Source: Planctomycetota bacterium
GTDB taxonomy: Bacteria > Planctomycetota > UBA1135
Assembly (NCBI GenBank): GCA_021776925.1
Contig: JAJFFB010000084.1
Location: 10,365 to 74,364 of the forward strand
Length of the DNA stretch: 64,000 nucleotides
Reading direction: 5' to 3'
Below the pieces are notes generated by a model, which worked only from the letters and a program-made list of their open reading frames with translations, was not told where the DNA came from and ran no database searches. The position numbers and the translations under genes are program-made. Position 1 is the stretch's first letter. Every line of letters begins with the position of its first letter. This document shows positions 6,091 to 64,000 of the stretch, one piece after another.

Positions 6091-6147
6091 GGAATGGTGC
6101 CGATCATAGCGTCATTCCGCGCCGTGGGCACGGTGCGCAAGGCTCGG

Positions 6148-7155
6148 CTAGCGTCCTGTCGCCAGCATGCCGTCGAGCATTTCGACGAGTTCGTCACGGG
6201 TGTAGGTGTAGGGCTGGTCCTGATTGAGTTGCACCACCTTGTTCATGGCGGCGCGGATGGTGAGCGCGGCTTCCTGTTGATTGGGTACGACCATGTAGCG
6301 GAGCTTGGGTTGCTCCGAGGTCAGGGCGTGCACGAAGGCCTCGGCGACTTCGTCAGGGTCCTTGTACTGACCGCGATCGAGGCGACTGCGCAGCAGGCCC
6401 TCGAGCTGACCCTGGTACCGCGATCCTTCGGTGGTGTAGCCGCGAGCCTCAAGGCGTTCCTTCATGCTGGTGGTGATCTTCGATTTGTAGTTGCCCGGCT
6501 CGACCACACTGACCTTTACGCCGAACGGCGCGAGTTCCATCGCCAACGCGTCGGTGTAGGCCTCAACCGCGTGTTTGCTCATCGCATACAAACCGCCGAG
6601 CCCCCACGCCATGATGCCGGAGATCGAACCGGTGGTGATCACCCGGCCCTTGCTTTCGATCAGCAGCGGCGCAAAAGCCTTGGTCACGCGGTAAGGCCCG
6701 GCGACGTTGACGTCCATCTGAAAATCGAAATCCTCTTGGGTCACTTCGATCAACGGTGCCACCACCACCACTCCGGCGTTGTTGATCAAGCCGTAAAGGC
6801 CACGCCCGCTTTCCTCAACGATTTTGAACGCCGCATCGATCTCGGCAGGAACCGTGACGTCGAGGCGGATCGCCTGCACGTTTTCGATCGCATCGAGTTC
6901 CTTCAGGTCCGTCTCCTTGCGCGCGCCGGCATAGACGAAGAAACCCTTCTTGGCCAGCACCTCGGCGGTGGTGCGCCCGATGCCGCTGCTGGCCCCGGTC
7001 ACCAGCACCGCGCGTTGCGGCGCGGGAGTGGTTGCGGGTTCTTGCACCCCAGTCACCCCATCCACCCCAGGCGCAGGACTACCCGGACCCAGGGCGGAGG
7101 TCCAACCGATCAAGGTGCACGCAAGGAGGATGGCGATGGCTCTCATGACAGCCAC
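6148..7155 (-). CDS. Short-chain dehydrogenase/reductase (SDR) with N-terminal signal-like segment
   Basis: TGASSGIG cofactor motif (VLVTGASSGIGRTTAEVL), NNAG, and the catalytic Y-x3-K in YAMSKHAVEAYTDALAMEL. The N-terminus MRAIAILLACTLIGWTSALG looks like a signal peptide, so the start may be M4 at 7146. Confidence 0.85.
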   Translation of the reverse strand: MAVMRAIAILLACTLIGWTSALGPGSPAPGVDGVTGVQEPATTPAPQRAVLVTGASSGIGRTTAEVLAKKGFFVYAGARKETDLKELDAIENVQAIRLDVTVPAEIDAAFKIVEESGRGLYGLINNAGVVVVAPLIEVTQEDFDFQMDVNVAGPYRVTKAFAPLLIESKGRVITTGSISGIMAWGLGGLYAMSKHAVEAYTDALAMELAPFGVKVSVVEPGNYKSKITTSMKERLEARGYTTEGSRYQGQLEGLLRSRLDRGQYKDPDEVAEAFVHALTSEQPKLRYMVVPNQQEAALTIRAAMNKVVQLNQDQPYTYTRDELVEMLDGMLATGR

Positions 7156-7194
7156 CGTAACCCCAAAATGGAGGATCTGGTGTCTAATGGAATC

Positions 7195-8475
7195 ATGAAG
7201 ATGCGCCTCATCTCCGCAGTAGCCCTGTTCCTGGCAAGTAGCACCACATCCGCTTTTCCTGCCCAGAACCCGGATCTGGCCATCTTCGATCTGACCGAGG
7301 GAAAAGACACGACGGTCGAGGTCAGCAACAACAACCCCGGCGACATCGTGCGAGTGGCGGCCTCATTACACGGGCCTGGACCCACCTCGACGATCTTCGG
7401 CATGGTCGACCTGACACCGCCGTGGATGAACTTCCCTCCCTTGGTGGCGGATGCCGCCGGAGTCGCATCGATGACCAAGTCGGTGCCCGCGGGAACCGCA
7501 GGCGTTCCGGTCTGGATTCAGGCGGTCAACGTGAGCAGTGGTCTGCTCAGCAACAGCCTCGCCGAGGTCATCGCTCCCGACGCCTCCATCGACGTGGTAT
7601 TTGTTCCTGCAGGGACCTTCGTCATGGGCGACCATTTTGGCGTTGGCAGGCCGGATGAACTGCCCTTGCACAGCGTCACTGTCGACGGTTTCTGGATGGA
7701 CCAATTCGAAGTGACCAACGCGGTCTACGCGAACTACCTGAATGCAGCCTATGCCGCAGGTGAAGTCACGGTGACCTCCAACGTCGTTTATCAGGTCGGC
7801 GGCGCCGGCCAGGTGATCTGCAGCACCACCTTGAGTTCGATATTCAGCCGGATCGTCTGGAGTGGTTCCGACTTCTCAGTGACCCCAGGCAAGGAAGACC
7901 ACCCGATGGTAGATGTCTCGTGGTATGGATCCTGCGCCTACGCCAATTGGCGCAGCGTTCAAGAGGGCCTGACTCCCTGTTATGACCCCTTGACCTGGGG
8001 GTGCAATTTTGCCGCCGACGGGTTGCGCCTGCCGACCGAGGCCGAATGGGAATACGCTGCCCGTGGAGGAGCAGCCACCGCCACCCAGTACCACTGGGGA
8101 AACACCATCAACGACTCCCACGCCAATTACTTCGATTCGGGCGACCCCTTCGAATCGGATCCCGATCCCAAGACGACTCCGGTGGGTTACTACGATGGCA
8201 ACCAGATTCCAGCCGGCGTCGACATGGCCAACGCCTACGGCCTTTATGACATGTCGGGCAACATGGTGGAATGGTGCAACGACTGGTATGACGCGGCCTA
8301 CTACGCTTCCAGCCCCGCGGTCAATCCGACCGGACCCGCTACCGGCACCTTCAAAGTGACTCGTGGAGGCAGCTGGGATCGCACTCCAATCGGCCTGCGT
8401 TCGGCCTGGCGCGCATTCATCTTCCCCTTCTTCCGCTTCATGAGCAACGGCTTCCGCCTGGTCTCCGTTCGTTAG
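7195..8475 (+). CDS. Secreted FGE-sulfatase (SUMF1/DUF323) fold protein with an N-terminal ~100-aa extra module
   Basis: In-frame ATG at 7195 inside the over-long 6094..8475 ORF, whose upstream part is antisense to the SDR. Signal peptide MKMRLISAVALFLASSTTSAFPA. FGE-family blocks are FVPAGTFVMGD, VTVDGFWMDQFEVTN, RLPTEAEWEYAARGG, YGLYDMSGNMVEWCNDWY and RGGSW. There is no Cys pair after RGGSW. Confidence 0.8.
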   Translation: MKMRLISAVALFLASSTTSAFPAQNPDLAIFDLTEGKDTTVEVSNNNPGDIVRVAASLHGPGPTSTIFGMVDLTPPWMNFPPLVADAAGVASMTKSVPAGTAGVPVWIQAVNVSSGLLSNSLAEVIAPDASIDVVFVPAGTFVMGDHFGVGRPDELPLHSVTVDGFWMDQFEVTNAVYANYLNAAYAAGEVTVTSNVVYQVGGAGQVICSTTLSSIFSRIVWSGSDFSVTPGKEDHPMVDVSWYGSCAYANWRSVQEGLTPCYDPLTWGCNFAADGLRLPTEAEWEYAARGGAATATQYHWGNTINDSHANYFDSGDPFESDPDPKTTPVGYYDGNQIPAGVDMANAYGLYDMSGNMVEWCNDWYDAAYYASSPAVNPTGPATGTFKVTRGGSWDRTPIGLRSAWRAFIFPFFRFMSNGFRLVSVR

Positions 8476-54783: not shown

Positions 54784-56295
54784 ATGCAGACTTCCCCCCT
54801 GGTCATGCTGGCGAGTTTCCTGTTTCCTCTGGCGCTGGCGGCGTGCCAGGTGCCGCCCGACGCCGACGGCGAGGCCGGGGTGCGGCCGCGGCCGAACATC
54901 CTGTTCATCTTTACCGATGACCACGCCTCCCATGCGATCTCCGCCTATGGCTCGCGCATCAACACCACGCCGAACTTGGATCGCATCGCTGCTGAAGGCA
55001 TGCTGTTCCGCAACGCCTTCTGCACCAATTCGATCTGCGGCCCGAGCCGTGCGGTGATCCTGACCGGCAAACACAGCCATCTCAATGGCTTCCGCACCAA
55101 TGGCGACAAGTTTGATGGCAGCCAGCAGACCGTGGCCAAGCTGCTGCAACAGGCCGGCTATCAGACCGCGATGATCGGCAAGTGGCATTTGAAGACCGAG
55201 CCGACCGGATTCGATTTCTGGCGCGTGCTGATCGGCCAGGGCCCGTACTACAACCCGATATTCAAGACGCCGGCAGGGAAGGAGAAAATCGAAGGCTACA
55301 CCACCGACGTGATCACCGACGTCGCGCTCGAATGGCTGCAGAAAGACCGCGACCCAGAGCGCCCCTTTCTGATGATGTACCAGCACAAGGCGCCGCACCG
55401 CAACTGGCAGCCGGCGCCGCGCCATCTGAATCTCTACGACGACGTTGAGATTCCAGAACCCGACACGCTGTTCGATGACTATCAGGGGCGCACCACCTTC
55501 GCCGCTGAGACCGAGATGACCCTGGCGGACCATTTCTTCCCCTTCGACGCCAAGTTCGAAGCGCCGAAAAACCTCACCGAAAGCCAACGCGCCGCGTGGG
55601 ACGCGGCCTACGACCCCAAGAACGAAAAGTTCTTCGCCGCCCGCGACTCGATGAGCAAGGACGAGATCACGCGCTGGCGCTATCAGCGTTACATCAAGGA
55701 CTACCTGCGCTGCATCAAGGCGGTCGATGAAAACGTCGGGCGCGTGCTCGAGTATCTTGAGGAAAGCGGCCTCGCCGACAACACCGTGGTCATCTACAGC
55801 AGCGACCAGGGCTTCTATCTCGGCGACCACGGCTGGTACGACAAGCGCTGGATGTACGAGGAATCACTGCGCATGCCGTTGATCGTGCGCTGGCCCGGCC
55901 AGGTCGAAGCCGGTGCCGTCGATGAACACCTGGTGCAGAACCTCGACTACGCTGAGACTTTTCTGGATCTGGCTCAGGCCGAAATTCCTGACGACATGCA
56001 AGGACGGAGTTTTCTGCCGTTGATGCTCGGGCAGGACGTGCCCTGGCGCCCGTCGATCTATTACCGCTACTTCGAGTACCCGCAGCCGCACCGCGTGCCG
56101 CCGCACTACGGCGTGCGCACCCAGCGGCACAAGCTCATCTACTATCCGCTGCGCGAGGAATGGGAACTGTTCGACCTGGTCCAGGACCCGGATGAATTAC
56201 GCAGCGTTTACTCGGATCCTGCCAACGCCGATCTTGTTCAGGAGCTCAAGAACGAATTGAATCGATTGCGCGAGCTGTATCAAGATGTGGATTGA
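54784..56295 (+). CDS. Cys-type sulfatase (arylsulfatase / N-acetylglucosamine-6-sulfatase-like) lipoprotein
   Basis: Lipobox [17 protein letters not shown] and [17 protein letters not shown] (the C-x-P-S-R formylglycine motif), then MIGKWHL and [15 protein letters not shown]. Confidence 0.9.
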
Positions 56296-56304
56296 TTGTT
56301 CTCT

Positions 56305-56383
56305 CGCCCGGGCCGCGCTCCACTGGGGCTAAAGCGGCGGCGCAACGCCGCCGAAGTCGCCCCAGCGAAGCGCGGCCCGGGCG
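56305..56383 (+). terminator. 79-nt compound hairpin immediately after the sulfatase stop
   Basis: The outer arms cgcccgggccgcgctccactggggc (56305-56329) and gccccagcgaagcgcggcccgggcg (56359-56383) pair at 23 of 25 positions by hand. The apical part contains a second perfect 8-bp stem, cggcggcg-caa-cgccgccg. There is no T-run directly after it, so a terminator role is only a guess. Confidence 0.45.
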
Positions 56384-56418
56384 GAAGCGACGTCATTCTT
56401 AATGAGGGTTTCTTCAGG
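56359..56418 (+). repeat. Direct repeat copy 1 (~60 nt), upstream of the lectin-sigma-kinase operon
   Basis: gccccagcgaagcgcggcccgggcggaagcgacgtcattcttaatgagggtttcttcagg. Its 5-prime half is the 3-prime arm of the compound hairpin. Confidence 0.7.
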
Positions 56419-56492
56419 ATTGGGCCTGTGTTTTGGGTCACAGGACGACCGCTGGGGCCTTGTAATGGGGAAACCCTAATCCTGGAGTTCTC

Positions 56493-58403
56493 ATGTTGTC
56501 CGCGGTTGTTCTTGCACTTTTTTCTCCCATTCAGGGGCCCCCAGCCGGTTACAACTGGGTTCAGAACCCAGATAATGGTCATTACTATGCGCTGACCAAT
56601 AGCAAAATCCGCTGGACCGAAGCGGAAGCGGAAGCAGCTTCAATTGGTAGCCATCTGGCTACTGTCAGGAATCTGAGCGAACATCAGTGGATTGAAGCGA
56701 ACTTGATATTCCAATCGAGTTGGATTGGATATTCCGATGCAAATGTCGAGGGTGAGTGGGAGTGGATTAGCGGCGAAGTGTTCTCATGGTGGCAGGATAA
56801 TGGGCACTTCGGCGCGGATGGCTCACCAGGCTATTGGAGTCCAGGGGAGCCGAATGACCAGGGCAACGAGGATTACGCGGTGATCAGGGGGGATGGATGG
56901 AATGACCTCCCGAATGATGGCTGGAGTGGGGATCCTATGAGATTCGGCGTCTTGGAGTGGGTCGGATTGGACAGTGACGGGGACGGGCTGCTGGACTCGG
57001 AGGAAGACCTGGATGGTGACGGCGTGGTGGATGCTGGAGAGACCGATCCATTTGATCAGGATACGGATGATGATGGTCTTGGGGATGGCGAGGAGTTTTC
57101 GCCAGTCAGGAATTGGATCCAAAACCCGGTGACTGGGAACTGGTATCGCTTGACCTCGGAGCCGAAGACTTGGACCGATGCTGAGGCGGAGGCCATTTCC
57201 TTGGGCGGGCATCTGGTTGGGTTGGAGAACCTGGTTGAGAATGACTGGGTGTTCAATACTTTCGGCGGCTTTGGCGAATTCCTCTGGATTGGTGTCAATG
57301 ACGTGCAGCAGGAAGGAGATTGGGTTTGGGCGAACGGCGAGTCCAGCTCCTGGTGGGCTCAGAATGGGTACTTCGGAGCCCAGGGTGAGCCGGGGTACTG
57401 GGCGGCTGGAAACCAGCCTCTGAACTACGACGATGGCTTCGATTATGGATATATGGACGGCCAAACAGTTGGCTGGCCATCCATGTGGGGTGCGGTGCTC
57501 AATGACACAGGGGTGCCGGGTCGGCTGTTTCAGGGTGTCATCGAAGTCGGACGAGTGCCGATGACCGATCCGTTGGCGGTCGACAGCGACGGCGATGGCG
57601 TGCAGGATGGGACCGAATCGGGGCTCGATCAGATCCGTTGGTTCGGCGATCCGGGAAATGGGATTGCGGGGACCGACCCTGCCATTTTCGTGGCCGATCA
57701 GGACCCTCAGACTACGACCAGCCCACTGGACATGGACTCAGATGAGGACGGGCTCGCCGATGGCGTTGAAGACCTGAATGCGGATGGTGCGCAGGGGATA
57801 TTGGAAACCGATCCATCGGCGTTGGACTCCGATGGAGATGGAATCCAGGATGGCACCGAGCTTGGCTTGGTCGTGGGGACTGCGGACACGGATCTGGACG
57901 TTTTCCTGGCAGATGCTGATCCTGCGACCACCACCAACCCCCTGGCGGTGGATACCGATGGGGGTGGAGTGAGCGACGGAGAAGAGGATCAGAATCTAGA
58001 TGGCGCATTCGACAGCTGGGATACCGATCCGCTGCTGGCCGCCGATGATGAACTCGCCTTCTATGTCTACAATCTGATTCCTGGGGAGCGGGTCAGGTAC
58101 AAGGTGTTTCAAGCGAAGCCATTCATCAACGTCATTCCGGTGTATTCCCTGGTGGGGGCTGGACCGACCAGCATCGGGCTTGGGGTGGTGCTTGATTTGT
58201 CCATGCCCATTCATCAGTTGGATGGATTTAGAACCGATGGGAACGGTTTCGGAGATGCGGCGGCGTGGGGTGCAGGCGGCAATGTGCCGGATTCGGCGCC
58301 TCCGGGGATGCCGGTCTACTTTCAGGCGGTCGAAGTCCCGACGCGGCCGGGTGAAACGGTACGCGTGTCCAATGCCCTGGTGGTGCCGGTGGGAGCCAAC
58401 TGA
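56493..58403 (+). CDS. Secreted protein with two C-type-lectin-like domains, thrombospondin type-3-like Ca-binding Asp-rich repeats and a C-terminal beta module
   Basis: GGAG lies 8 nt upstream of the ATG. CTLD 1 is WTEAEAEAASIGSHLATV...WIGYSD...GEWEWISGE...GEPND (EPN 56847-56855)...NEDYAVI...GWNDLPND (WND 56898-56906). CTLD 2 is degenerate (QPL). Repeats are of the DSDGDGLLDSEEDLDGDGVVDAGETDP type. No cysteine occurs anywhere in the 636 aa. Confidence 0.8.
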   Translation: MLSAVVLALFSPIQGPPAGYNWVQNPDNGHYYALTNSKIRWTEAEAEAASIGSHLATVRNLSEHQWIEANLIFQSSWIGYSDANVEGEWEWISGEVFSWWQDNGHFGADGSPGYWSPGEPNDQGNEDYAVIRGDGWNDLPNDGWSGDPMRFGVLEWVGLDSDGDGLLDSEEDLDGDGVVDAGETDPFDQDTDDDGLGDGEEFSPVRNWIQNPVTGNWYRLTSEPKTWTDAEAEAISLGGHLVGLENLVENDWVFNTFGGFGEFLWIGVNDVQQEGDWVWANGESSSWWAQNGYFGAQGEPGYWAAGNQPLNYDDGFDYGYMDGQTVGWPSMWGAVLNDTGVPGRLFQGVIEVGRVPMTDPLAVDSDGDGVQDGTESGLDQIRWFGDPGNGIAGTDPAIFVADQDPQTTTSPLDMDSDEDGLADGVEDLNADGAQGILETDPSALDSDGDGIQDGTELGLVVGTADTDLDVFLADADPATTTNPLAVDTDGGGVSDGEEDQNLDGAFDSWDTDPLLAADDELAFYVYNLIPGERVRYKVFQAKPFINVIPVYSLVGAGPTSIGLGVVLDLSMPIHQLDGFRTDGNGFGDAAAWGAGGNVPDSAPPGMPVYFQAVEVPTRPGETVRVSNALVVPVGAN

Positions 58404-58404
58404 C

Positions 58405-59127
58405 ATGAACGAGTCTGATCCGGTGCAGCAGGCGGTGGCGGGATTTCGGTCGCGCCTGGTGATCCTCGCCGACCGCCATCTCGGCAGCCGTGCACTGGAA
58501 GTCATCGAAGCCTCCGATCTTCAGGTTGCTCTTCAGACGCAGGCAAGCGGCCAGGACGACTTGGATTCATTGCTGGCGCAGGTCTTTGAGGGTGCGGAAG
58601 GAGACCCTGAGCTGCGTGCGGAGTTCTTTGCGTTCTTCTGGGATCGCATGCCGACGGGTGGGTCCACCAGCCGGTATCCGATCCTGCGCCGGTTTCTGGA
58701 CAGTGGCGACCTTTTGGCAAGCGCCTTTGGCGACATGATGGAAGGTCTCAGTCGATTGGAGTTCCGTGGCCGCCATTCCTTCCAGGCCATGTTGGTGCAG
58801 CGGATGAAATGGAAGACCTATTCCCAATTACGCAGAGCCAACCGCGACACTCCAGTTCTTGGCAGTTCGGGGCCCGAATTTGTAGACGGGAATCAAGCCA
58901 GCGACCCAGCAACGGCTTATGAGGATTCCGAGGCCAACAGCGAAATCATTTCCGCGATCGCATCCTTGCGGCCTCGGGAGCGGTCCTTGATTCGCCTATT
59001 CCTGAACGGTGCGACCGGCCAGGAAATGGCTCTTGAGGTCGGAATGAGGCCGGCCGCGTCGCGCAAAGCCCTGCAACGAGCCTTGACAGGGCTGCGTGCC
59101 ATTCTTATCAATGCAGATCGTGGGTGA
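58405..59127 (+). CDS. ECF-type sigma-70 family factor
   Basis: ATG 58405 lies 1 nt after the lectin stop (TGAcATG). The N-terminus RLVILADRHLGSRALEVIEASDLQ resembles the PF07638-type ECF region 2. Region 4 HTH is LRPRERSLIRLFLNGATGQEMALEVGMRPAASRKALQRALTGLRAIL. Confidence 0.7.
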   Translation: MNESDPVQQAVAGFRSRLVILADRHLGSRALEVIEASDLQVALQTQASGQDDLDSLLAQVFEGAEGDPELRAEFFAFFWDRMPTGGSTSRYPILRRFLDSGDLLASAFGDMMEGLSRLEFRGRHSFQAMLVQRMKWKTYSQLRRANRDTPVLGSSGPEFVDGNQASDPATAYEDSEANSEIISAIASLRPRERSLIRLFLNGATGQEMALEVGMRPAASRKALQRALTGLRAILINADRG

Positions 59128-61270
59128 CTCGATTGATCCTGATGCGACGGCCGGTGGCGAGGAGTACTTTCAGGATTACGTGCAATTATTGCGTACTGGA
59201 GACGCTCCTGGCCTCGAAGAATTCCTGGCCGGCCTTCCGCCTGATGCGCGCCCGGCAACAAGGCTGAAGATCAGCGAATTCGAGGAGATCTGGCGTACCT
59301 TCCATCAAGCCAGTCACGCACTCAAGGCCGGGCGGTCCTTCGGCCATTACCTTTTGGTCCGAGAGCTTGGACGTGGCGGTTTCAGCACGGTGTGGGAAGC
59401 CGAAGACCGCAATTTGCATCGCCAGGTTGCCCTCAAGATCTTGCACCTGGCGTTCAGCTTGGATGACCGAGCCGAGATCCGGCTGCAGCGCGAGGCGGAG
59501 GCGCTGGCACGGATGCACCACCCGGGCATCCTCAAGGTCTATGGCCTGTACCGGATCGAGGGTCAGCTCGCCCTTGCGGTCGAATTGGTTGAGGGAGGGC
59601 AATCCCTGCTCGACGAGATCTCGCAACGGGCGCCGGACGCTCTCGGGCCGTTTCGGGTGCGCCAAATGGCCCAGCGCTTCGCAGTCGTTGCCGAGGCACT
59701 GGAAGAAGCGCACCAATCCGGCATCCTGCATCGTGACATCAAGCCATCGAATCTTCTCTTGACCAAGGATGGGGGCTTGAAGCTGGCCGACTTCGGCCTC
59801 GCCATGTTGGAGGGGAATAGCGACGAGCTCACCCGGACCACAGAATCCATCGGTACCGTCCCGTATGTGCCACCCGAACCCTTGGCGGGCAGGGGCTTCA
59901 GTCCGCAGACCGATGTCTGGTCGCTCGGGGTCACTTTATTTGAGTCTTTATGCGGGAGCCGCCCCTTCCAGGGGCAAACCGCGCACGATGTTCGCACCAG
60001 GATTCTGAACTCCGAACCCCAGTGGCCGCGAAGCGCACGGAAACTGCCAGCGGACTTACGGGCAATTTGCTCCATGGCCCTGGCCAAGAATCCGCATGAT
60101 CGCTATGCGAGCATGCAGGCGATGGCGACCGACCTCCGAAACTGGTTGGATGGGCATCCAGTGGTTGCGCGTAGGGCCAGCCTCTCCCGACAAGCCGTGG
60201 CTTGGGTCAGACGCAACGTTCCTGCGGTCGTCCTCGTGGTCAGCGTGATGGTGGTCGCAGGTGTCCTTGCCGCTCTGCTCAAGCAGTCGGTCCAGAATGA
60301 AAGGCGCGCCAAGGAATCGGTGCGCATCATGAGCCAGATGCTGACCCCGCTGGATCCAGCAGCCCTGGACAGGTCTGGTGCCCGCATGCTGGAACTGGCT
60401 GACCAGGCCCACGATTTCGCCAATGAGGAGCTGGTGGGTCAGCCTGCCGAACGCGCGCGACTCCTGAAGGCAGTCGGCGGAGCCAGGATGTACCTGGAAG
60501 ATTTTGCCCAGGCCGAGGTCTCCTACCGAAACAGCTACGCAATTCAACCCGATGAAGAGACCTTGGTCAGGATTGCCTGGTGCCTGGGGCAACTGGAAAA
60601 AGTGGAAGAGGCAGCGCGCATCCTGGAGCCCATCGCCAACAGGCCTCTCCATGGAGATCTTCACCGGGATTCCCTGACCCTATTGGCACGCAACCGGCTG
60701 GGCGGGGTGGAATTGGGAGTCGGCGATGCCAAGTCGGTGGAAAATGCGCGCAAGCGATTCGAGGACCTTGCGCAATCCTTGCAGGGCATGCCCCAGGATC
60801 TTCCATTCCTGCGCTGCCTCAACCTGCTCAATCTGGCCACTTCCCATTATCAATCCAGGGATTTCGAGTTGGCTCTGGCCGGTTTCAAGAAAGCCAGAGG
60901 AGCCTTCTATGACTCAGGCCTGTTTTCCCACCCTGACGTTTTCTTCACCTACGTAGGCGAGCACCATGTCTTGAAAATGAAAGGTGACCTGGACCATTCT
61001 GTGGAAGCCCTGCTCAACGGACTCGACCACCGTCGCGAGCACCATGGTCCCTTCATGATGAACACCCTGCGCGCCCAGCTCACCATCGCCCGAGACCTGT
61101 TTGCGTGCGGCAGACAGGAAGAGGCCCGGACACTCTTCCTTGATTACCGGTCCAAGTTTCCCAATCGGATTGGATCCTATGCTTTGCGCCAACAGAAGGA
61201 CATCTGGACTGATCTAGCGGCCCAACTTGGAGAACCAGGCGCCCTGCCCGGACTGACCACGGAACCCTGA
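59111..61270 (+). CDS. Ser/Thr protein kinase (Hanks type) with one TM helix and a C-terminal TPR-like sensor domain
   Basis: ATG 59111 overlaps the sigma gene end by 17 nt. Kinase motifs are LGRGGFSTVWEA, VALKIL, HRDIKPSNLLL, DFGLA, GTVPYVPPE and DVWSLGVTLFE. The TM helix is VPAVVLVVSVMVVAGVLAALL, followed by about 330 aa that are helical-repeat-like. Confidence 0.9.
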   Translation: MQIVGDSIDPDATAGGEEYFQDYVQLLRTGDAPGLEEFLAGLPPDARPATRLKISEFEEIWRTFHQASHALKAGRSFGHYLLVRELGRGGFSTVWEAEDRNLHRQVALKILHLAFSLDDRAEIRLQREAEALARMHHPGILKVYGLYRIEGQLALAVELVEGGQSLLDEISQRAPDALGPFRVRQMAQRFAVVAEALEEAHQSGILHRDIKPSNLLLTKDGGLKLADFGLAMLEGNSDELTRTTESIGTVPYVPPEPLAGRGFSPQTDVWSLGVTLFESLCGSRPFQGQTAHDVRTRILNSEPQWPRSARKLPADLRAICSMALAKNPHDRYASMQAMATDLRNWLDGHPVVARRASLSRQAVAWVRRNVPAVVLVVSVMVVAGVLAALLKQSVQNERRAKESVRIMSQMLTPLDPAALDRSGARMLELADQAHDFANEELVGQPAERARLLKAVGGARMYLEDFAQAEVSYRNSYAIQPDEETLVRIAWCLGQLEKVEEAARILEPIANRPLHGDLHRDSLTLLARNRLGGVELGVGDAKSVENARKRFEDLAQSLQGMPQDLPFLRCLNLLNLATSHYQSRDFELALAGFKKARGAFYDSGLFSHPDVFFTYVGEHHVLKMKGDLDHSVEALLNGLDHRREHHGPFMMNTLRAQLTIARDLFACGRQEEARTLFLDYRSKFPNRIGSYALRQQKDIWTDLAAQLGEPGALPGLTTEP

Positions 61271-61303
61271 CGCCGCTTGATCGATCTCCTGCCCGGCCGG
61301 GGC

Positions 61304-62989
61304 TCAGGAATCCAGGATGGGTTGCAGCTCGGCTGGGGGGATCTTGATATGGATGAGTTGACCTGGGGCCGGTTTTTGGATGGTGAAGGGTTGGCCGACG
61401 GATATTGGCCAACTTCCGAATGGGGAAAGCCAGAGTTGGCATTGGGTCCCGGAAAAGAAACGGTATTGGGGCCAGCTATGGGACCCGGTGAGGAAAGAGG
61501 CTGGGTCTTCGATCGGGCCTTTTTCTTCGGTGAGGAGTCCGCCCATTTCCAGTGGGAGCCCGGAAGTGTTTTCCAGAACGTAGCCGGCGTAGAAGCAGTC
61601 TGGTTTTAGGGTGGCAATCACGGAGATCGGAGGGGCTACGTTTCCCGTGACTTGGATATTGGAGAGAGTTTCGATCTGAGGTCCTTTGCCGAACTTCTGG
61701 TTCCACGTGTCCACGGAGGTGGAAAGGTCATAGAACCCTGGGGGAATAAAGAACAGGAATCCTGGTTTTCCGTCTGCCCGTCGGCGGCCTTGCCGATCAA
61801 GGTACTCGGTTTGGGATTGATGTTGATTCCAACGGACATTCAGGGAATCGGGAATCACTCCGGAGACAAAGTGGGCGGTTGGTTCGAGGTGTACCACCAC
61901 CGGCACGAGTTCTTTGGGCCAATCGCCGGGGAAGCGCTGGATGGTCAGCGTAGGGTCCATGATGTGCTTTAATTCGACGACCATGGTCTCAGGGTCCACC
62001 AGGTTGTCTGGATGGATCCGGGTGATCCTGTAGGACGATTCCGTCCACTCCTTTTCCGTTATGAGCTGCCAATCCACCTTTTCGAATTCGGGATCGAAAT
62101 CGGCTTCCGATTCAATGACTTCCAGGCGGCTGGTGTAGTCCGGCGTCCTGAACGGAAATGAGGTTTGTGTGGTTGGATTCACTTCGTGTCCGGAGCAACC
62201 CCAGAATTCGCGCATGTCTTCGACGACGCCGTAGGCAAGCAACCTTCCGAGTTGGAGGTCGAACGAGGTAGGGCCAGAATCCTGGAAAGTGACCTTGGCA
62301 TGGGTCTGCCCATATCCCTCGGCACGTGCAATCAGGCGGATGCATTGAGCGCCGTAGATGCGGCCCCGCCAAGTCCCATGTTCATCAACCGACCGGCGCT
62401 GCTTGGTCGGGCTGAGGGCGCCGAAGACCTGCAGCCGGGCTGTGGGAATGGGGTCGCCTCTGAAGTCCGTGACCGTCACGATCACGTCGTTCCAACCACC
62501 CAGATCCAGAACGAGCACGCGGCCAATCTCATCTCGGTCGGAAACCGTTGCTCGTTCCACTCGGGTGGGGAAGCCGTTATCTGGCAAAAACCACGCAGAA
62601 AAAACGGGGGTCAGGAGATGGCTCCACTGAGTCTCTTCCACCAAGCATTTCCCGGCTTCTACGGAAACGGTCTGGGGCTCTTGCAATTCTCCCTTGGTAA
62701 TGGCGTCGGCTTGCTCCAACACCGCAAAGCGGAGCCTTCCGTTGGCTTCTACGACTGTTCCAGAGGCGTGGATCTCTACGTTCCAGGCGGATTGTGCAGG
62801 CGTGGATACCAGGTCCCGACCAGAGGCCTTCTGTGCCTCAGACTCAGCAATAAGGCTTTGCCGGGGGAGGTCAATTTGAACCTTATCCTCCTTAGGCGGA
62901 GGAGAAGCCTTTTGAAATGCCCAGAAGACGGCCAAAAGGGCGAGAACCAAGAGAAATGCAAAGCCTCGAATGGAGGGAGTATTAGGCAT
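61304..62989 (-). CDS. Membrane-anchored hypothetical protein (561 aa), beta-rich ectodomain
   Basis: Preferred start is ATG 62989 (MPNTPSIRGFAFLLVLALLAVFWAF anchor). It has a carboxypeptidase-regulatory-like strand pattern, VIVTVTDFRGDPIPTARLQVFG. I recognise no family. G+C is lower than in most of the window. Confidence 0.6.
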   Translation of the reverse strand: MPNTPSIRGFAFLLVLALLAVFWAFQKASPPPKEDKVQIDLPRQSLIAESEAQKASGRDLVSTPAQSAWNVEIHASGTVVEANGRLRFAVLEQADAITKGELQEPQTVSVEAGKCLVEETQWSHLLTPVFSAWFLPDNGFPTRVERATVSDRDEIGRVLVLDLGGWNDVIVTVTDFRGDPIPTARLQVFGALSPTKQRRSVDEHGTWRGRIYGAQCIRLIARAEGYGQTHAKVTFQDSGPTSFDLQLGRLLAYGVVEDMREFWGCSGHEVNPTTQTSFPFRTPDYTSRLEVIESEADFDPEFEKVDWQLITEKEWTESSYRITRIHPDNLVDPETMVVELKHIMDPTLTIQRFPGDWPKELVPVVVHLEPTAHFVSGVIPDSLNVRWNQHQSQTEYLDRQGRRRADGKPGFLFFIPPGFYDLSTSVDTWNQKFGKGPQIETLSNIQVTGNVAPPISVIATLKPDCFYAGYVLENTSGLPLEMGGLLTEEKGPIEDPASFLTGSHSWPQYRFFSGTQCQLWLSPFGSWPISVGQPFTIQKPAPGQLIHIKIPPAELQPILDS

Positions 62990-63077
62990 GGTCGGACCCC
63001 AGCCTCGATAGAAAAGGCATGGCAGCAGGTAGCATGATTTTCCGACCAACGAGGCCCAAAGGACCGCAAGGCCTGAC

Positions 63078-63135
63078 GCCCCAGCGAAGCCCGGTCAGGG
63101 CGGAGGCAACGTCATTCTTCTTGAGGGAGTTCAGG
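63078..63135 (+). repeat. Direct repeat copy 2 (~58 nt), immediately upstream of the beta-lactamase-family gene
   Basis: gccccagcgaagcccggtcagggcggaggcaacgtcattcttcttgagggagttcagg. 43 of the first 50 positions are identical to copy 1 by hand alignment, in the same orientation. Confidence 0.7.
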
Positions 63136-63140
63136 TTAAT

Positions 63141-64000
63141 ATGGAAGCAATGCTTTTGATTGCCTTTTTATTGAGCGCGTTCGCGCAGTCTGTGGGGTCA
63201 CCAGGCATCGGTCCGCAGCAGGTTCTTGACCGGGTGGCGGGAGAGAACCTGGGTTATGGCGGGGCCGTGTTCCGCGCTGCGCAGGGGCCGGACCTGTTGT
63301 GGCAAGGAGCGTCGGGAAGCCTGACGCGCAACGGAGCGGCGATGACCAGCGAGGCGGTTTTTGAAATCGCCAGCACTTCCAAGGCGATGACTGCCGCCGC
63401 AGTGCTGTTGGAAGTGGAAGCCGGCCGCCTCGACCTCGACGCCCCTCTCAGCAACTACCTTGCGCCCGCCTTCACCGACAAGCTGCTCGTCATCGGCGGC
63501 CACAATTACGGCCCCGAACTCACCCTGCGCCAGCTCTTGTCCCACACCTCGGGCCTGCCCGATTATTGGTACGACCCGCCCTTCATCGTTCCCGGCTTGA
63601 CTCCGCTGTTCGTTCCCGGAAGCGGCTGGCACTACTCCGATTCCGGTTACCTTCTCGCCGGCCTGGTGCTGGAAAAGGTCACCGGCCTGCCCTTGCAGGA
63701 AATCTACCGCACCCGCATCTACCAGCCGCTCGGCATGCACCAGACCTGGCTCCAGTGGCGCGAGAACCCACCCCCCGGCGCCACCCAATCCCATCGCTAC
63801 GAAGGCGATTGGGACATGTACACCAAAGGCCACAACAGCGCCGACTGGGCCGGCGGCGGTCTCGGCAGCACCACCTACGACCTGCACCTCTTCCTGCGCG
63901 GCATCGCCGACGGCACCCTCTTCGCCAACCCCGCCACCCGCGACCAGATGATGGCCTGGACCCCAACCGGCGACCCCGGCGTCCACTACGGCCTCGGCCT
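63141..64000 (+). CDS. Serine hydrolase, beta-lactamase (class C / esterase EstB-like) family; C-terminus beyond the window
   Basis: Hand translation gives MEAMLLIAFLLSAFAQS (signal)...AVFEIASTSKAMTAAAVLLEVEAGRLDLDAPL (S-x-x-K), LLSHTSGLPDY and HYSDSGYLLAG (Y-x-N-like position). It is absent from the track because it has no stop in the window. The 63198..63986 minus-strand ORF is its antisense shadow. Confidence 0.8.
   Translation, partial: MEAMLLIAFLLSAFAQSVGSPGIGPQQVLDRVAGENLGYGGAVFRAAQGPDLLWQGASGSLTRNGAAMTSEAVFEIASTSKAMTAAAVLLEVEAGRLDLDAPLSNYLAPAFTDKLLVIGGHNYGPELTLRQLLSHTSGLPDYWYDPPFIVPGLTPLFVPGSGWHYSDSGYLLAGLVLEKVTGLPLQEIYRTRIYQPLGMHQTWLQWRENPPPGATQSHRYEGDWDMYTKGHNSADWAGGGLGSTTYDLHLFLRGIADGTLFANPATRDQMMAWTPTGDPGVHYGLG

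What the first reader, a model, noticed from the sequence alone, without database searches (positions are those of the whole stretch)
56493..61270. Secreted lectin co-transcribed with an ECF sigma factor and a transmembrane Ser/Thr kinase, with no anti-sigma factor
The three genes are essentially fused at the DNA level. The lectin stop and sigma start are TGAcATG, and the sigma end overlaps the kinase start by 17 nt. No anti-sigma factor gene is present. ECF sigma factors next to Hanks-type kinases form a known class, and direct phosphorylation control has been described for an ECF sigma/kinase pair in Vibrio parahaemolyticus. To my knowledge a Ca-dependent glycan-binding protein as the first gene of such an operon is not a described arrangement. 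It suggests a glycan-recognition, kinase and sigma signalling module, with the lectin as either extracellular co-sensor or output.
Basis: partly seen in the sequence, partly recalled or inferred. Interest (0 to 1): 0.65.

Follow-up and report, generated by a model that had tools for sequence, protein, structure and literature searches.

The report
Lectin gene fused to sigma-kinase signalling pair
A Planctomycetota bacterium from a biofilm carries a three-gene unit in which a calcium-binding lectin is made together with a sigma factor and the membrane kinase that probably switches it on. Related genomes suggest the lectin is most likely an output of this known kind of switch, not a new kind of sensor.

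Summary
The lectin ORF (56493-58403), the sigma ORF (58405-59127) and the kinase ORF (59111 or 59096 to 61270) are joined as described, and no anti-sigma gene is present.

- **Lectin:** two C-type lectin domains, aspartate-rich TSP3-type calcium repeats, and an unnamed C-terminal beta-sandwich. The first lectin domain keeps the EPN/E/WND sugar-calcium site.
- **Sigma:** belongs to a small Planctomycetota family of about 214 clusters. It has a conserved helical N-terminal extension of about 65 residues. The acidic DAED patch of sigma2.2 reads D-[T/S]-G-D, and a near-invariant Ser replaces the Glu of "VQE".
- **Kinase:** catalytically intact, with one membrane helix and a TPR-like outer domain.

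In 10 of 11 related loci the sigma sits beside such a kinase. In 8 of the 10 loci found through the sigma, it also sits beside genes for secreted proteins (RCC1, LamG, FG-GAP, C-type lectin, S8 protease).

In one clade a promoter-like motif, TGTCCC-N15-17-CGCT, lies upstream of both the sigma and these neighbours. This points to the neighbours being the sigma's local regulon.

C-type lectin adjacency itself was seen in only one other locus. In another locus the kinase's outer LamG domain is 50% identical to that of the neighbouring secreted protein.

Verdict: a new variant of the known kinase-regulated ECF class, with the lectin probably an output. Co-transcription and phosphorylation remain untested.

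The parts
56305..56383 (+). Strong hairpin directly after the sulfatase stop codon. It is a likely terminator or insulator that marks the 5' limit of the transcription unit. Its inner 33 nt recur elsewhere in the metagenome.
   Evidence: Arms of 38 nt, 84% complementary. RNA minimum free energy -76.8 kcal/mol, z -8.5, with 0 of 200 shuffles as stable. Logan contigs branch at 56328-56360.
56358..56408 (+). Copy 1 of a 51-nt direct repeat. It is a candidate shared cis-regulatory element and ends 84 nt upstream of the lectin ATG.
   Evidence: 86% identical to 63077-63127. The core GGCGGARGCRACGTCATTCTT occurs 2 times against 0.01 expected.
56427..56455 (+). Weak candidate promoter TGTGTT-N17-CGCTG. 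An alternative -35-like GGTCAC lies at 56436-56441. This is not established.
   Evidence: It is the only match in the 197-nt upstream region to the relaxed form TGT-N20-CGCT of the sister-clade motif. That relaxed form is not enriched in the window (7 observed, 8.8 expected). The position-weight-matrix score is low.
56493..58403 (+). Lectin gene, 636 aa, no Cys, 114 Asp+Glu against 18 Lys+Arg. Layout: N-terminal hydrophobic stretch aa 1-13; CTLD1 aa ~20-157 (56550-56963) with EPN/E/WND; TSP3-type calcium repeats aa 158-204; CTLD2 aa 205-352 (57105-57548) with a degenerate site; TSP3-type repeats aa 353-516 (57549-58040); unnamed beta-sandwich aa 517-636 (58041-58400).
   Evidence: partial CglD-like hit of 113 bits over aa 357-516; AF2 pLDDT 79; beta-sandwich HMM.
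58405..59127 (+). ECF-type sigma factor, 240 aa. Layout: helical N-terminal extension aa 1-~67; sigma2 aa 68-147; disordered linker aa 148-167; sigma4 aa 168-240.
   Evidence: 214 family clusters; profile alignment to solved ECF sigmas; AF2 pLDDT 87; Foldseek: SigE, SigH, AlgU, SigW.
58699..58722 (+). Sigma2.2 segment D99-S100-G101-D102-L-L-A-S106. These are the proposed phospho-acceptor sites.
   Evidence: It aligns to FTDAEDLVQET of the solved sigma 7qh5. Across 163 family members, position 100 is Thr or Ser in 133, position 102 is Asp in 161, and position 106 is Ser in 154.
59111..61270 (+). Hanks-type Ser/Thr kinase, 719 aa from the ATG at 59111 or 724 aa from the GTG at 59096. Layout: N-terminal helical region aa 1-78; kinase domain aa 79-345 (59345-60145) with VALK, HRD and DFG intact; single TM aa 371-392 (60221-60286); TPR-like extracytoplasmic domain aa 393-719 (60287-61267).
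   Evidence: It is 32% identical over its full length to the L002 kinase.
63077..63127 (+). Copy 2 of the 51-nt repeat. It ends 13 nt upstream of the ATG (63141) of a + strand beta-lactamase-family gene that runs off the window.
   Evidence: PF00144, E 1.5e-49.

Best explanation
This is an operon of an uncultured Planctomycetota bacterium from a biofilm. It couples a kinase-activated ECF sigma factor to one of its own target genes.

**Shown**
- The three genes abut or overlap.
- The sigma has sigma2 and sigma4 plus a family-specific helical N-terminal extension.
- Its sigma2.2 core-binding patch has lost two canonical glutamates. It carries Ser100 in D-S-G-D (canonical DAED) and Ser106 in place of the Glu of 'VQE'.
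- The kinase has all catalytic motifs, one membrane helix and a C-terminal TPR-like domain that must lie outside the cytoplasm.

**Inferred**
1. An extracytoplasmic cue acts on the TPR-like domain and activates the kinase.
2. The kinase phosphorylates the sigma at Ser100 and/or Ser106.
3. This restores the negative charge needed to bind the RNA polymerase beta' clamp helices, as shown for EcfP/PknT and EcfK/PknS.
4. The active sigma transcribes from a promoter between the hairpin (56383) and the lectin start (56493).
5. Lectin, sigma and kinase then rise together, which is positive autoregulation.

The lectin would be exported and bind mannose/GlcNAc/fucose-type glycans through CTLD1 in a calcium-dependent way, for example for attachment in the biofilm matrix or to a partner surface. 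On this view the lectin is one member of a variable set of secreted binding proteins that this sigma family controls locally.
For: **Gene coupling**
- Junctions confirmed.
- Overlapping sigma-kinase genes recur in L002, L007, L008 and L009.

**Family and phospho-site logic**
-.
- Literature: PMC8999054, PMC8103513, PMC13147305.

**Kinase next to sigma**
- Present in 10 of 11 distinct loci.

**Neighbours are secreted binding proteins**
- L002: C-type lectin, RCC1-lectin, FG-GAP, LamG-TSP3.
- L007: TSP3 plus beta-sandwich.
- L009: LamG-TSP3-beta-sandwich.
- L011: two FG-GAP proteins.
- L012: LamG and RCC1.
- L017: FG-GAP.
- L018: RCC1 and LamG.
- L014 and L019: S8 protease.
- Sources.

**Direct link to regulation**
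- TGTCCC-N15-17-CGCT occurs 3, 3 and 2 times in L012, L018 and L017.
- Every occurrence lies just upstream of the sigma gene or of the neighbouring LamG, RCC1 or FG-GAP gene, on the right strand.
- Shuffle means are 0.31, 0.14 and 0.17. The numbers of shuffles reaching the observed count are 0/1000, 0/1000 and 7/1000.
- Only one match occurs in 206 kb of the other loci.
- A related TGTCAC-N16-GGCTC lies upstream of the sigma gene in L014 and L019, ranked 2 and 4 within those loci.

**Orientation**
- The lectin-type gene is upstream on the same strand (window), divergent (L002, L017), convergent (L007) or downstream (L009, L011).
- This fits regulon membership better than an obligatory subunit.

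**Transcription unit boundary**
- A strong hairpin directly after the upstream gene fits a separate transcription unit starting before the lectin.
Against: - No transcript data exist, so the operon and promoter are inferred.
- The sister-clade motif is absent from the window. The window's own promoter was not identified.
- The window sigma keeps two of the four DAED acidic residues (D99, D102). It is therefore not the fully uncharged ECF43 type. The need for phosphorylation is less obvious, and the acceptor residue is a guess.
- C-type lectin adjacency itself is seen in only one other locus.
- The closest lectin homologue (P0004, 46% identical) has no sigma or kinase within 8 kb.
- The sample of loci is small: 11 loci in about 9 clades. 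Secreted-protein genes are common in these genomes.
- The lectin's signal peptide is atypical.
Confidence: 0.55

Rival explanations
1. **Co-sensor model.** The secreted lectin binds a glycan and then docks on the kinase's TPR-like ectodomain, or is released from it. The lectin would be the ligand-recognition subunit of the receptor as well as being co-expressed with it.
For: - TPR domains are protein-binding modules, and this one lies outside the membrane (PMC11032199).
- In L009 the kinase of the same sigma family carries a LamG ectodomain instead of TPR. That domain is 50% identical over 232 residues (E 5e-80) to the LamG head of the next gene's secreted TSP3/beta-sandwich protein. Sensor and neighbour are therefore tuned to the same kind of ligand there.
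- Tight translational coupling in the window would give fixed stoichiometry.
Against: - No interaction test was possible.
- The neighbour's head domain varies widely (RCC1, LamG, FG-GAP, C-type lectin, protease), while kinases of the window type keep a TPR-like domain.
- Two of the loci found through the sigma (L008, L016) have the sigma-kinase pair with no such neighbour.
- Neighbour genes carry the sigma-type promoter motif in L012, L017 and L018, which output alone explains.
- The convergent orientation in L007 does not suggest a fixed complex.
Confidence: 0.2
2. **Passenger model.** The lectin gene merely lies in front of a sigma-kinase pair and is read through with it. The sigma's real targets are elsewhere and the pairing has no functional meaning.
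For: - The closest lectin homologue and two more distant ones lack the pair nearby.
- Proteins with the same beta-sandwich domain occur elsewhere in the window (6094-8475), so the family is not rare.
- Assembly graphs branch in the repeat upstream of the lectin. This hints at a recombination-prone spot.
Against: - The one-base spacing (TGAcATG) implies co-expression at the least.
- L002 independently places a 43%-identical lectin next to a 37%-identical sigma and a 32%-identical kinase.
- In the loci found through the sigma, every ORF that matches the lectin's beta-sandwich HMM is the gene next to the sigma or kinase. These are L007, L009 and L017, out of about 114 kb.
- The FG-GAP neighbours in L011 share a related domain (hhalign 79%, E 1.6e-5).
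Confidence: 0.15
3. **Regulation mainly by the sigma's N-terminal extension.** The conserved ~65-residue helical extension would hold the sigma inactive in cis, or dock a partner. The kinase would act on other substrates or only fine-tune the sigma.
For: - The extension is conserved across the family and is modelled with pLDDT above 90.
- N-terminal extensions have been proposed as regulators in planctomycetal ECF groups (PMC8103513). They are reported to have arisen in a kinase-regulated ancestor (PMC7671368).
- D99 and D102 are retained, so core binding may not strictly need phosphate.
Against: - Near-universal kinase adjacency and overlapping reading frames.
- A near-invariant Ser at the position of the core-contacting Glu.
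- No fold match gives the extension an anti-sigma-like role.
Confidence: 0.1

Closest known systems
EcfP/PknT of Vibrio parahaemolyticus and EcfK/PknS of Xanthomonas citri (ECF43; kinase-activated ECF sigma factors)
   Same: - An ECF sigma encoded next to a transmembrane Hanks kinase, with no anti-sigma factor.
- Ser/Thr residues within or next to the sigma2.2 patch that contacts the beta' clamp.
- The proposed logic of charge restoration by phosphorylation (PMC8999054, PMC13147305).
   Different: - ECF43 sigmas lack all DAED acidic residues (STTA in EcfP). This sigma reads D-S-G-D and has Ser instead of the following 'VQE' Glu.
- It has a conserved ~65-residue N-terminal extension.
- The family is restricted to Planctomycetota as far as names are available.
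- The targets are a lectin and other secreted binding proteins, not polymyxin-resistance or T6SS genes.
- Phosphorylation has not been tested.
Planctomycetal kinase-associated ECF groups (ECF59-62, ECF217) and planctomycetal ECFs with N-terminal extensions (original ECF87-89)
   Same: - Same phylum, kinase adjacency and no anti-sigma factor.
- A serine is the predicted acceptor in ECF59 and ECF60.
- ECF60 is noted for a divergent sigma2. Here Pfam finds only sigma4 (PMC7826278, PMC8103513).
   Different: - Group assignment could not be made, because no ECF group models or reference sequences were available.
- Scores against the Planctomycete-specific NCBIfam models are far below their cut-offs: TIGR02984 29 against 184, TIGR02989 28 against 125.
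- The held literature does not describe the neighbourhood of secreted lectin and propeller proteins.
Animal C-type lectin carbohydrate-recognition domains (DC-SIGN/DC-SIGNR, langerin)
   Same: - The fold (Foldseek TM 0.82 to langerin).
- The calcium-site-2 residues EPN...E...WND in CTLD1.
   Different: - No disulfides; the protein has no cysteine at all.
- Bacterial origin.
- Fused to TSP3-type calcium repeats and a beta-sandwich.
- The second domain has lost the EPN site.
CglD-type and other bacterial TSP3-repeat surface proteins
   Same: Aspartate-rich DxDxDGxxDxxE calcium-binding repeats, with a partial NF033765 match of 113 bits over aa 357-516. Homologues carry Pfam TSP3_bac.
   Different: Far below the CglD equivalog cut-off of 400 bits, with a different domain content. 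There is no evidence of a role in gliding.

Membership tests
ECF (group 4) sigma-70 factors | Only sigma2 and sigma4 domains, homologous to known ECF sigmas | tested here: met
   - Sigma70_r4_2 at 27 bits against a cut-off of 25.7.
- TIGR02937 at 43.1 bits against 42.9.
- The family profile aligns to solved ECF sigmas over sigma2 and sigma4 (9isn_F, E 8e-11).
- The AF2 model's best fold matches are SigE, SigH, AlgU and SigW.
- The Pfam sigma2 model itself does not hit, so sigma2 is divergent.
Kinase-regulated ECF sigma factors (ECF43-like phospho-switch) | Hanks-type Ser/Thr kinase gene adjacent, conserved across the family | tested here: met
   The window genes overlap by 17 nt. The kinase is adjacent in 10 of 11 distinct loci.
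Kinase-regulated ECF sigma factors (ECF43-like phospho-switch) | No anti-sigma factor encoded nearby | tested here: met
   There is no free ORF within 56493-61270. The flanking genes are a sulfatase and a membrane-anchored CarboxypepD_reg-like protein with no cytoplasmic domain. No anti-sigma Pfam domain appears in any related locus table.
Kinase-regulated ECF sigma factors (ECF43-like phospho-switch) | DAED acidic motif of sigma2.2 replaced by uncharged residues that include the phospho-acceptor | tested here: inconclusive
   - The motif is D-S-G-D in the window and D/E-T/S-G-D in the family, so both Asp are kept and the Glu is lost.
- Ser/Thr at position 2 in 133 of 163 members.
- The next canonical Glu ('VQE') is Ser in 154 of 163 members.
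- This is partly like ECF43, but not the same.
Kinase-regulated ECF sigma factors (ECF43-like phospho-switch) | Sigma is phosphorylated by the cognate kinase and is inactive without it | not testable with these tools
   Needs a kinase assay, phosphoproteomics and mutants.
Named ECF groups (ECF43, 59-62, 217, 87-89) | Assignment by the group HMMs of the ECF classification | not tested
NCBIfam planctomycete subfamily models score far below their cut-offs.
Calcium-dependent C-type lectin carbohydrate-recognition domain | C-type lectin fold | tested here: met
   Pfam Lectin_C at 53.7 bits with two stretches. phmmer hit to DC-SIGNR at E 2.7e-13. Foldseek TM up to 0.82 to langerin.
Calcium-dependent C-type lectin carbohydrate-recognition domain | Calcium-site-2 and sugar ligands EPN (or QPD), Glu, and WND | tested here: met
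   - CTLD1 reads GEPNDQGNEDYAVIRGDGWND, aligned to [28 protein letters not shown].
- CTLD2 reads NQP... and lacks WND, so the feature is not met there.
- Homologues vary between EPN and QPD.
Calcium-dependent C-type lectin carbohydrate-recognition domain | Conserved disulfide bonds | tested here: not met
   The protein has no cysteine. The Cys of 'NEDC' is Tyr.
Calcium-dependent C-type lectin carbohydrate-recognition domain | Measured calcium-dependent glycan binding | not testable with these tools
   Needs a glycan array or binding assay.
Hanks-type receptor Ser/Thr kinase | Intact catalytic motifs, single TM and an extracytoplasmic sensor domain | tested here: met
   - Pkinase at 171 bits.
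- GRGGFS, VALK, HRD, DFG and a Thr-rich activation loop can be read in the sequence.
- One hydrophobic segment at aa 371-392.
- The C-terminal 325 residues give only sub-threshold TPR hits (TPR_12 24.9 against 30.1). The L008 kinase, a more distant member of the same family, passes the cut-off (32.6).

The most novel reading that the evidence does not exclude
The secreted binding protein and the kinase ectodomain form a matched sensor pair. The lectin captures a specific glycan outside the cell, or in the L009 locus the kinase's own copy of the neighbour's LamG head does so. Ligand-bound lectin is then read by the TPR-like ectodomain. The cell would make more of a given adhesin or lectin only when that protein's ligand is present. 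This would be a modular 'ligand-matched' positive-feedback circuit built from an ECF sigma, a Hanks kinase and interchangeable secreted heads.
Probability: 0.17. Interest if true: 0.75.

Novelty: new variant of a known kind. Interest (0 to 1): 0.45.

Why it matters
Kinase-activated ECF sigma factors are established, but what they sense and what they control is known for only two or three pairs. This family offers concrete, testable guesses.

- **Outputs:** its local targets appear to be secreted calcium-binding proteins with interchangeable binding heads (lectin, LamG, RCC1 and FG-GAP propellers).
- **Inputs:** in one locus the kinase's sensor domain is a close copy of its neighbour's head. 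This suggests that input and output recognise the same ligand.
- **Mechanism:** the family shows a partly acidic sigma2.2 patch (D-T/S-G-D...S), intermediate between canonical ECFs and ECF43. This is useful for testing how much charge the core-binding patch needs.

For Planctomycetota, which have many such kinases and sigmas and few genetic data, this gives a starting point for linking surface and adhesion proteins to signalling. It does not open a new category of system.

Tried and rejected
1. **RNA evidence.** No RNA run holds the region. Four DNA runs from one biofilm study do.
2. **Wider synteny.**
   - Word-based search with the sigma alone found only one relative.
   - The genome scan gave one locus and the metagenome scan three.
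   - The closest sigma relatives from the exhaustive search (P0123-P0126, 38-41% identical) were not returned by the search for homologous proteins. Under the session's stated limit on that look-up they were not eligible, so I did not try to look up their contigs.
3. **Promoter of the window operon.**
   - De novo k-mer and bipartite searches over 16 upstream regions gave no motif shared by all.
   - The clade motif TGTCCC-N15-18-CGCT is absent from the window.
   - A relaxed form is not enriched.
   - Position-weight-matrix scores upstream of the lectin and in the L002 intergenic region are at background level.
   - GGAAC-like -35 boxes seen by eye had no common -10 element.
4. **The 581-aa downstream gene as an anti-sigma factor.** Rejected. 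Its membrane anchor is at the N-terminus, and it has no cytoplasmic domain.
5. **The lectin's C-terminal domain as a sorting tail.** Not supported. The same domain is internal in ORF 6094-8475. The 'QFWYRDP' C-terminal domain of the L012, L014, L018 and L019 neighbours is not detectably related.
6. **L009 kinase as a frameshift artefact.** Rejected. It has its own TM segment, LamG domain and stop codon, and the next gene has its own signal peptide.
7. **Fold search for the sigma N-terminal extension.** It gave only whole-sigma matches.
8. **Intrinsic terminator after the kinase.** None found.

Full report
**1. Observation**

The three ORFs exist as described.
- The lectin ends with TGA at 58401-58403, and the sigma ATG follows after one base.
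- The sigma ends at 59127.
- The kinase can start at ATG 59111 (17-nt overlap) or at GTG 59096 (32-nt overlap).
- The lectin start is fixed by an in-frame stop at 56463 and has a GGAG 5 nt upstream.

Pfam and NCBIfam give the following:
- Lectin_C, two stretches.
- Sigma70_r4_2, plus the ECF superfamily model just above its cut-off.
- Pkinase, with weak TPR hits.

The flanks do not supply an anti-sigma factor. A sulfatase gene lies upstream and a convergent gene for a membrane-anchored protein lies downstream.

Independent support comes from sequencing runs.
- A Logan contig of 7786 nt from a biofilm metagenome run covers 56480-61600 without a difference.
- Strain variants in a second run fall on third codon positions in 21 of 26 cases.
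- Both long ORFs therefore behave as real genes.
- No RNA run was available, so co-transcription rests on gene spacing alone.

**2. The lectin**

The 636-aa product has no cysteine and is very acidic.
- The AlphaFold model (pLDDT 79) and Foldseek show two C-type lectin folds.
- The first domain aligns with DC-SIGNR and keeps EPN, the following Glu and WND. These are the ligands of the sugar-binding calcium.
- The second domain has lost them.
- Between and after the lectin domains lie aspartate-rich TSP3-type repeats. There is a partial CglD-like match, and homologues carry TSP3_bac.
- The last 120 residues form a beta-sandwich with no Pfam family.

A profile of that sandwich finds it in many relatives whose N-terminal heads differ: C-type lectin, RCC1 propeller, FG-GAP, LamG and beta-helix. 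It is distantly related to the C-terminal domain of FG-GAP proteins in L001, L002 and L011 (hhalign 79%).

The window protein's N-terminus is only a short hydrophobic stretch. Homologues have ordinary signal peptides. Export is therefore likely but not certain.

**3. The sigma**

An exhaustive HMMER search found 214 clusters at E <= 1e-3. They are of uniform length (about 225-250 aa) and match from about residue 20 to 235. Where names exist they are Planctomycetota.

The alignment and the model (pLDDT 87) show three parts:
- a conserved four-helix N-terminal extension of about 65 residues;
- a divergent sigma2;
- a normal sigma4.

The family profile aligns 'fldTgDLvqSv' with 'FTDAEDLVQET' of a solved ECF. 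The canonical DAED is therefore D-[T/S]-G-D, and the Glu of VQE is Ser.

Across 163 members:
- position 100 is Thr or Ser in 133;
- position 102 is Asp in 161;
- position 106 is Ser in 154.

Reviews state that ECF43 sigmas lack DAED (STTA in EcfP) and are activated by phosphorylation there. They also state that a serine is the predicted acceptor in ECF59/60, and that planctomycetal ECFs with N-terminal extensions exist and arose in a kinase-regulated lineage (PMC8999054, PMC8103513, PMC7671368, PMC7826278).

The window sigma fits this landscape but could not be assigned to a named group.

**4. The kinase**

All catalytic motifs are present. There is one membrane helix (aa 371-392). The C-terminal 325 residues are TPR-like and must be extracytoplasmic. 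This architecture is reported as common in Planctomycetota (PMC11032199).

**5. Related loci**

*Found through lectin homologues*
- L002 has a 37%-identical sigma and a 32%-identical full-length kinase. They are divergently transcribed from a 43%-identical lectin and an RCC1-lectin, with FG-GAP and LamG-TSP3 genes nearby.
- L001, L003 and L004 have no such pair.

*Found through the sigma (10 distinct loci)*

| Locus | Arrangement |
|---|---|
| L007 | sigma-kinase, then a convergent TSP3/beta-sandwich gene |
| L008 | pair only |
| L009 | sigma, a kinase with a LamG ectodomain, then a secreted LamG-TSP3-beta-sandwich gene |
| L011 | sigma followed by two FG-GAP genes, no kinase |
| L012 | pair, then LamG, plus RCC1 on the other strand |
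| L014, L019 | kinase-sigma, then a 68-aa PEP-CTERM peptide, then convergent S8 protease |
| L016 | pair only |
| L017 | kinase divergent from sigma, which is followed by FG-GAP with the lectin-type sandwich |
| L018 | pair, then RCC1, an unknown gene, and LamG |

The kinase is almost always present. A C-type lectin is rare. A secreted binding protein next door is the rule, in 8 of the 10 loci.

**6. Regulatory evidence**

A de novo search found TGTCCC-N15-17-CGCT. Exact matches occur three times in L012, three times in L018 and twice in L017.
- Each match lies just upstream, on the correct strand, of the sigma gene or of the neighbouring LamG, RCC1 or FG-GAP gene.
- Shuffles give means of 0.14-0.31 per locus and never or rarely reach the observed counts.
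- The remaining 206 kb hold one match.
- A related TGTCAC-N16-GGCTC lies before the sigma gene in L014 and L019.

This is the pattern expected of an autoregulated ECF sigma whose neighbours are its targets. By analogy, a promoter before the lectin would drive all three window genes.

The window promoter was not found. The clade motif is absent, and only weak candidates exist.

Upstream of the lectin there are two notable features:
- a very stable hairpin right after the sulfatase gene;
- a 51-nt repeat whose second copy precedes a neighbouring beta-lactamase-family gene.

The repeat may be a shared control element, but this is unproven.

**7. Sensor-output match**

In L009 the kinase's LamG ectodomain is 50% identical over 232 residues to the LamG head of the adjacent secreted protein. 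This is the best hint that input and output are matched. It keeps the co-sensor idea open for TPR-type kinases such as the window's.

**8. Verdict**

The unit is a new variant of the known kinase-regulated ECF class. It has a partly acidic sigma2.2 patch and an N-terminal extension, and it is linked to secreted lectin-like and propeller proteins.

The lectin is most likely an output under positive autoregulation (0.55). The alternatives are a co-sensor role (0.2), a passenger (0.15), and control mainly by the extension (0.1). Interest is moderate.

Noticed in passing
window 56305-56383: An exceptionally stable hairpin (-76.8 kcal/mol) between the sulfatase and lectin genes. Short-read contigs of three runs branch at 56328-56360 into other sequence, so the inner part is a repeated, REP-like element in this community.
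   Followed up: partly
window 56358-56408 and 63077-63127: A 51-nt direct repeat, 86% identical, in the same orientation. It lies upstream of the lectin operon and 13 nt upstream of a beta-lactamase-family gene. It may be a shared regulatory element and does not match the sister-clade promoter motif.
   Followed up: partly
window 63141-64000 (+): A beta-lactamase-family serine hydrolase gene (PF00144, signal peptide, STSK motif) runs off the window end. It is therefore missing from the ORF list, and the listed minus-strand ORF 63198-63986 is probably spurious.
   Followed up: yes
L009 8570-11441: The kinase has a degenerate C-lobe (HCD instead of HRD), one TM segment and a LamG ectodomain. That ectodomain is 50% identical to the LamG head of the next gene's secreted TSP3/beta-sandwich protein.
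   Followed up: yes
L014 8844-9050; L019 3420-3626: A conserved 68-aa gene directly after the sigma encodes a signal peptide plus a PEP-CTERM-like tail (TPEPITLVLLAGTLGGGAYLARRRR). This suggests an exosortase-sorted mini-protein in that clade's unit.
   Followed up: no
window 6094-8475 (+): This ORF combines the lectin-type beta-sandwich domain, here internal (E 2e-18), with a C-terminal FGE-sulfatase domain. The window also holds a sulfatase gene at 54784-56295.
   Followed up: partly
L004 12908-17605 versus L008 1549-9061: Both loci have the same Lon, SDF-symporter and 293-aa genes. The sigma-kinase pair sits between the symporter and the 293-aa gene only in L008, so the pair looks like an insertable module.
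   Followed up: no
window 527-3298 and 3319-6090 (-): Two tandem 923-aa ORFs with no Pfam match.
   Followed up: no
window 57659-58064 and 60181-60607: Run X2 carries a variant strain with clustered differences in the lectin's TSP3 region and around the kinase TM and ectodomain. 21 of 26 differences are at third codon positions.
   Followed up: partly
L012, L014, L018, L019 neighbour genes: A second, unrelated conserved C-terminal domain ending in ...W.FQFWYRDP......N.SDAL.V.F.P is shared by RCC1, LamG and S8-protease neighbours of the sigma. No Pfam match to this domain was reported for these proteins in these searches.
   Followed up: partly
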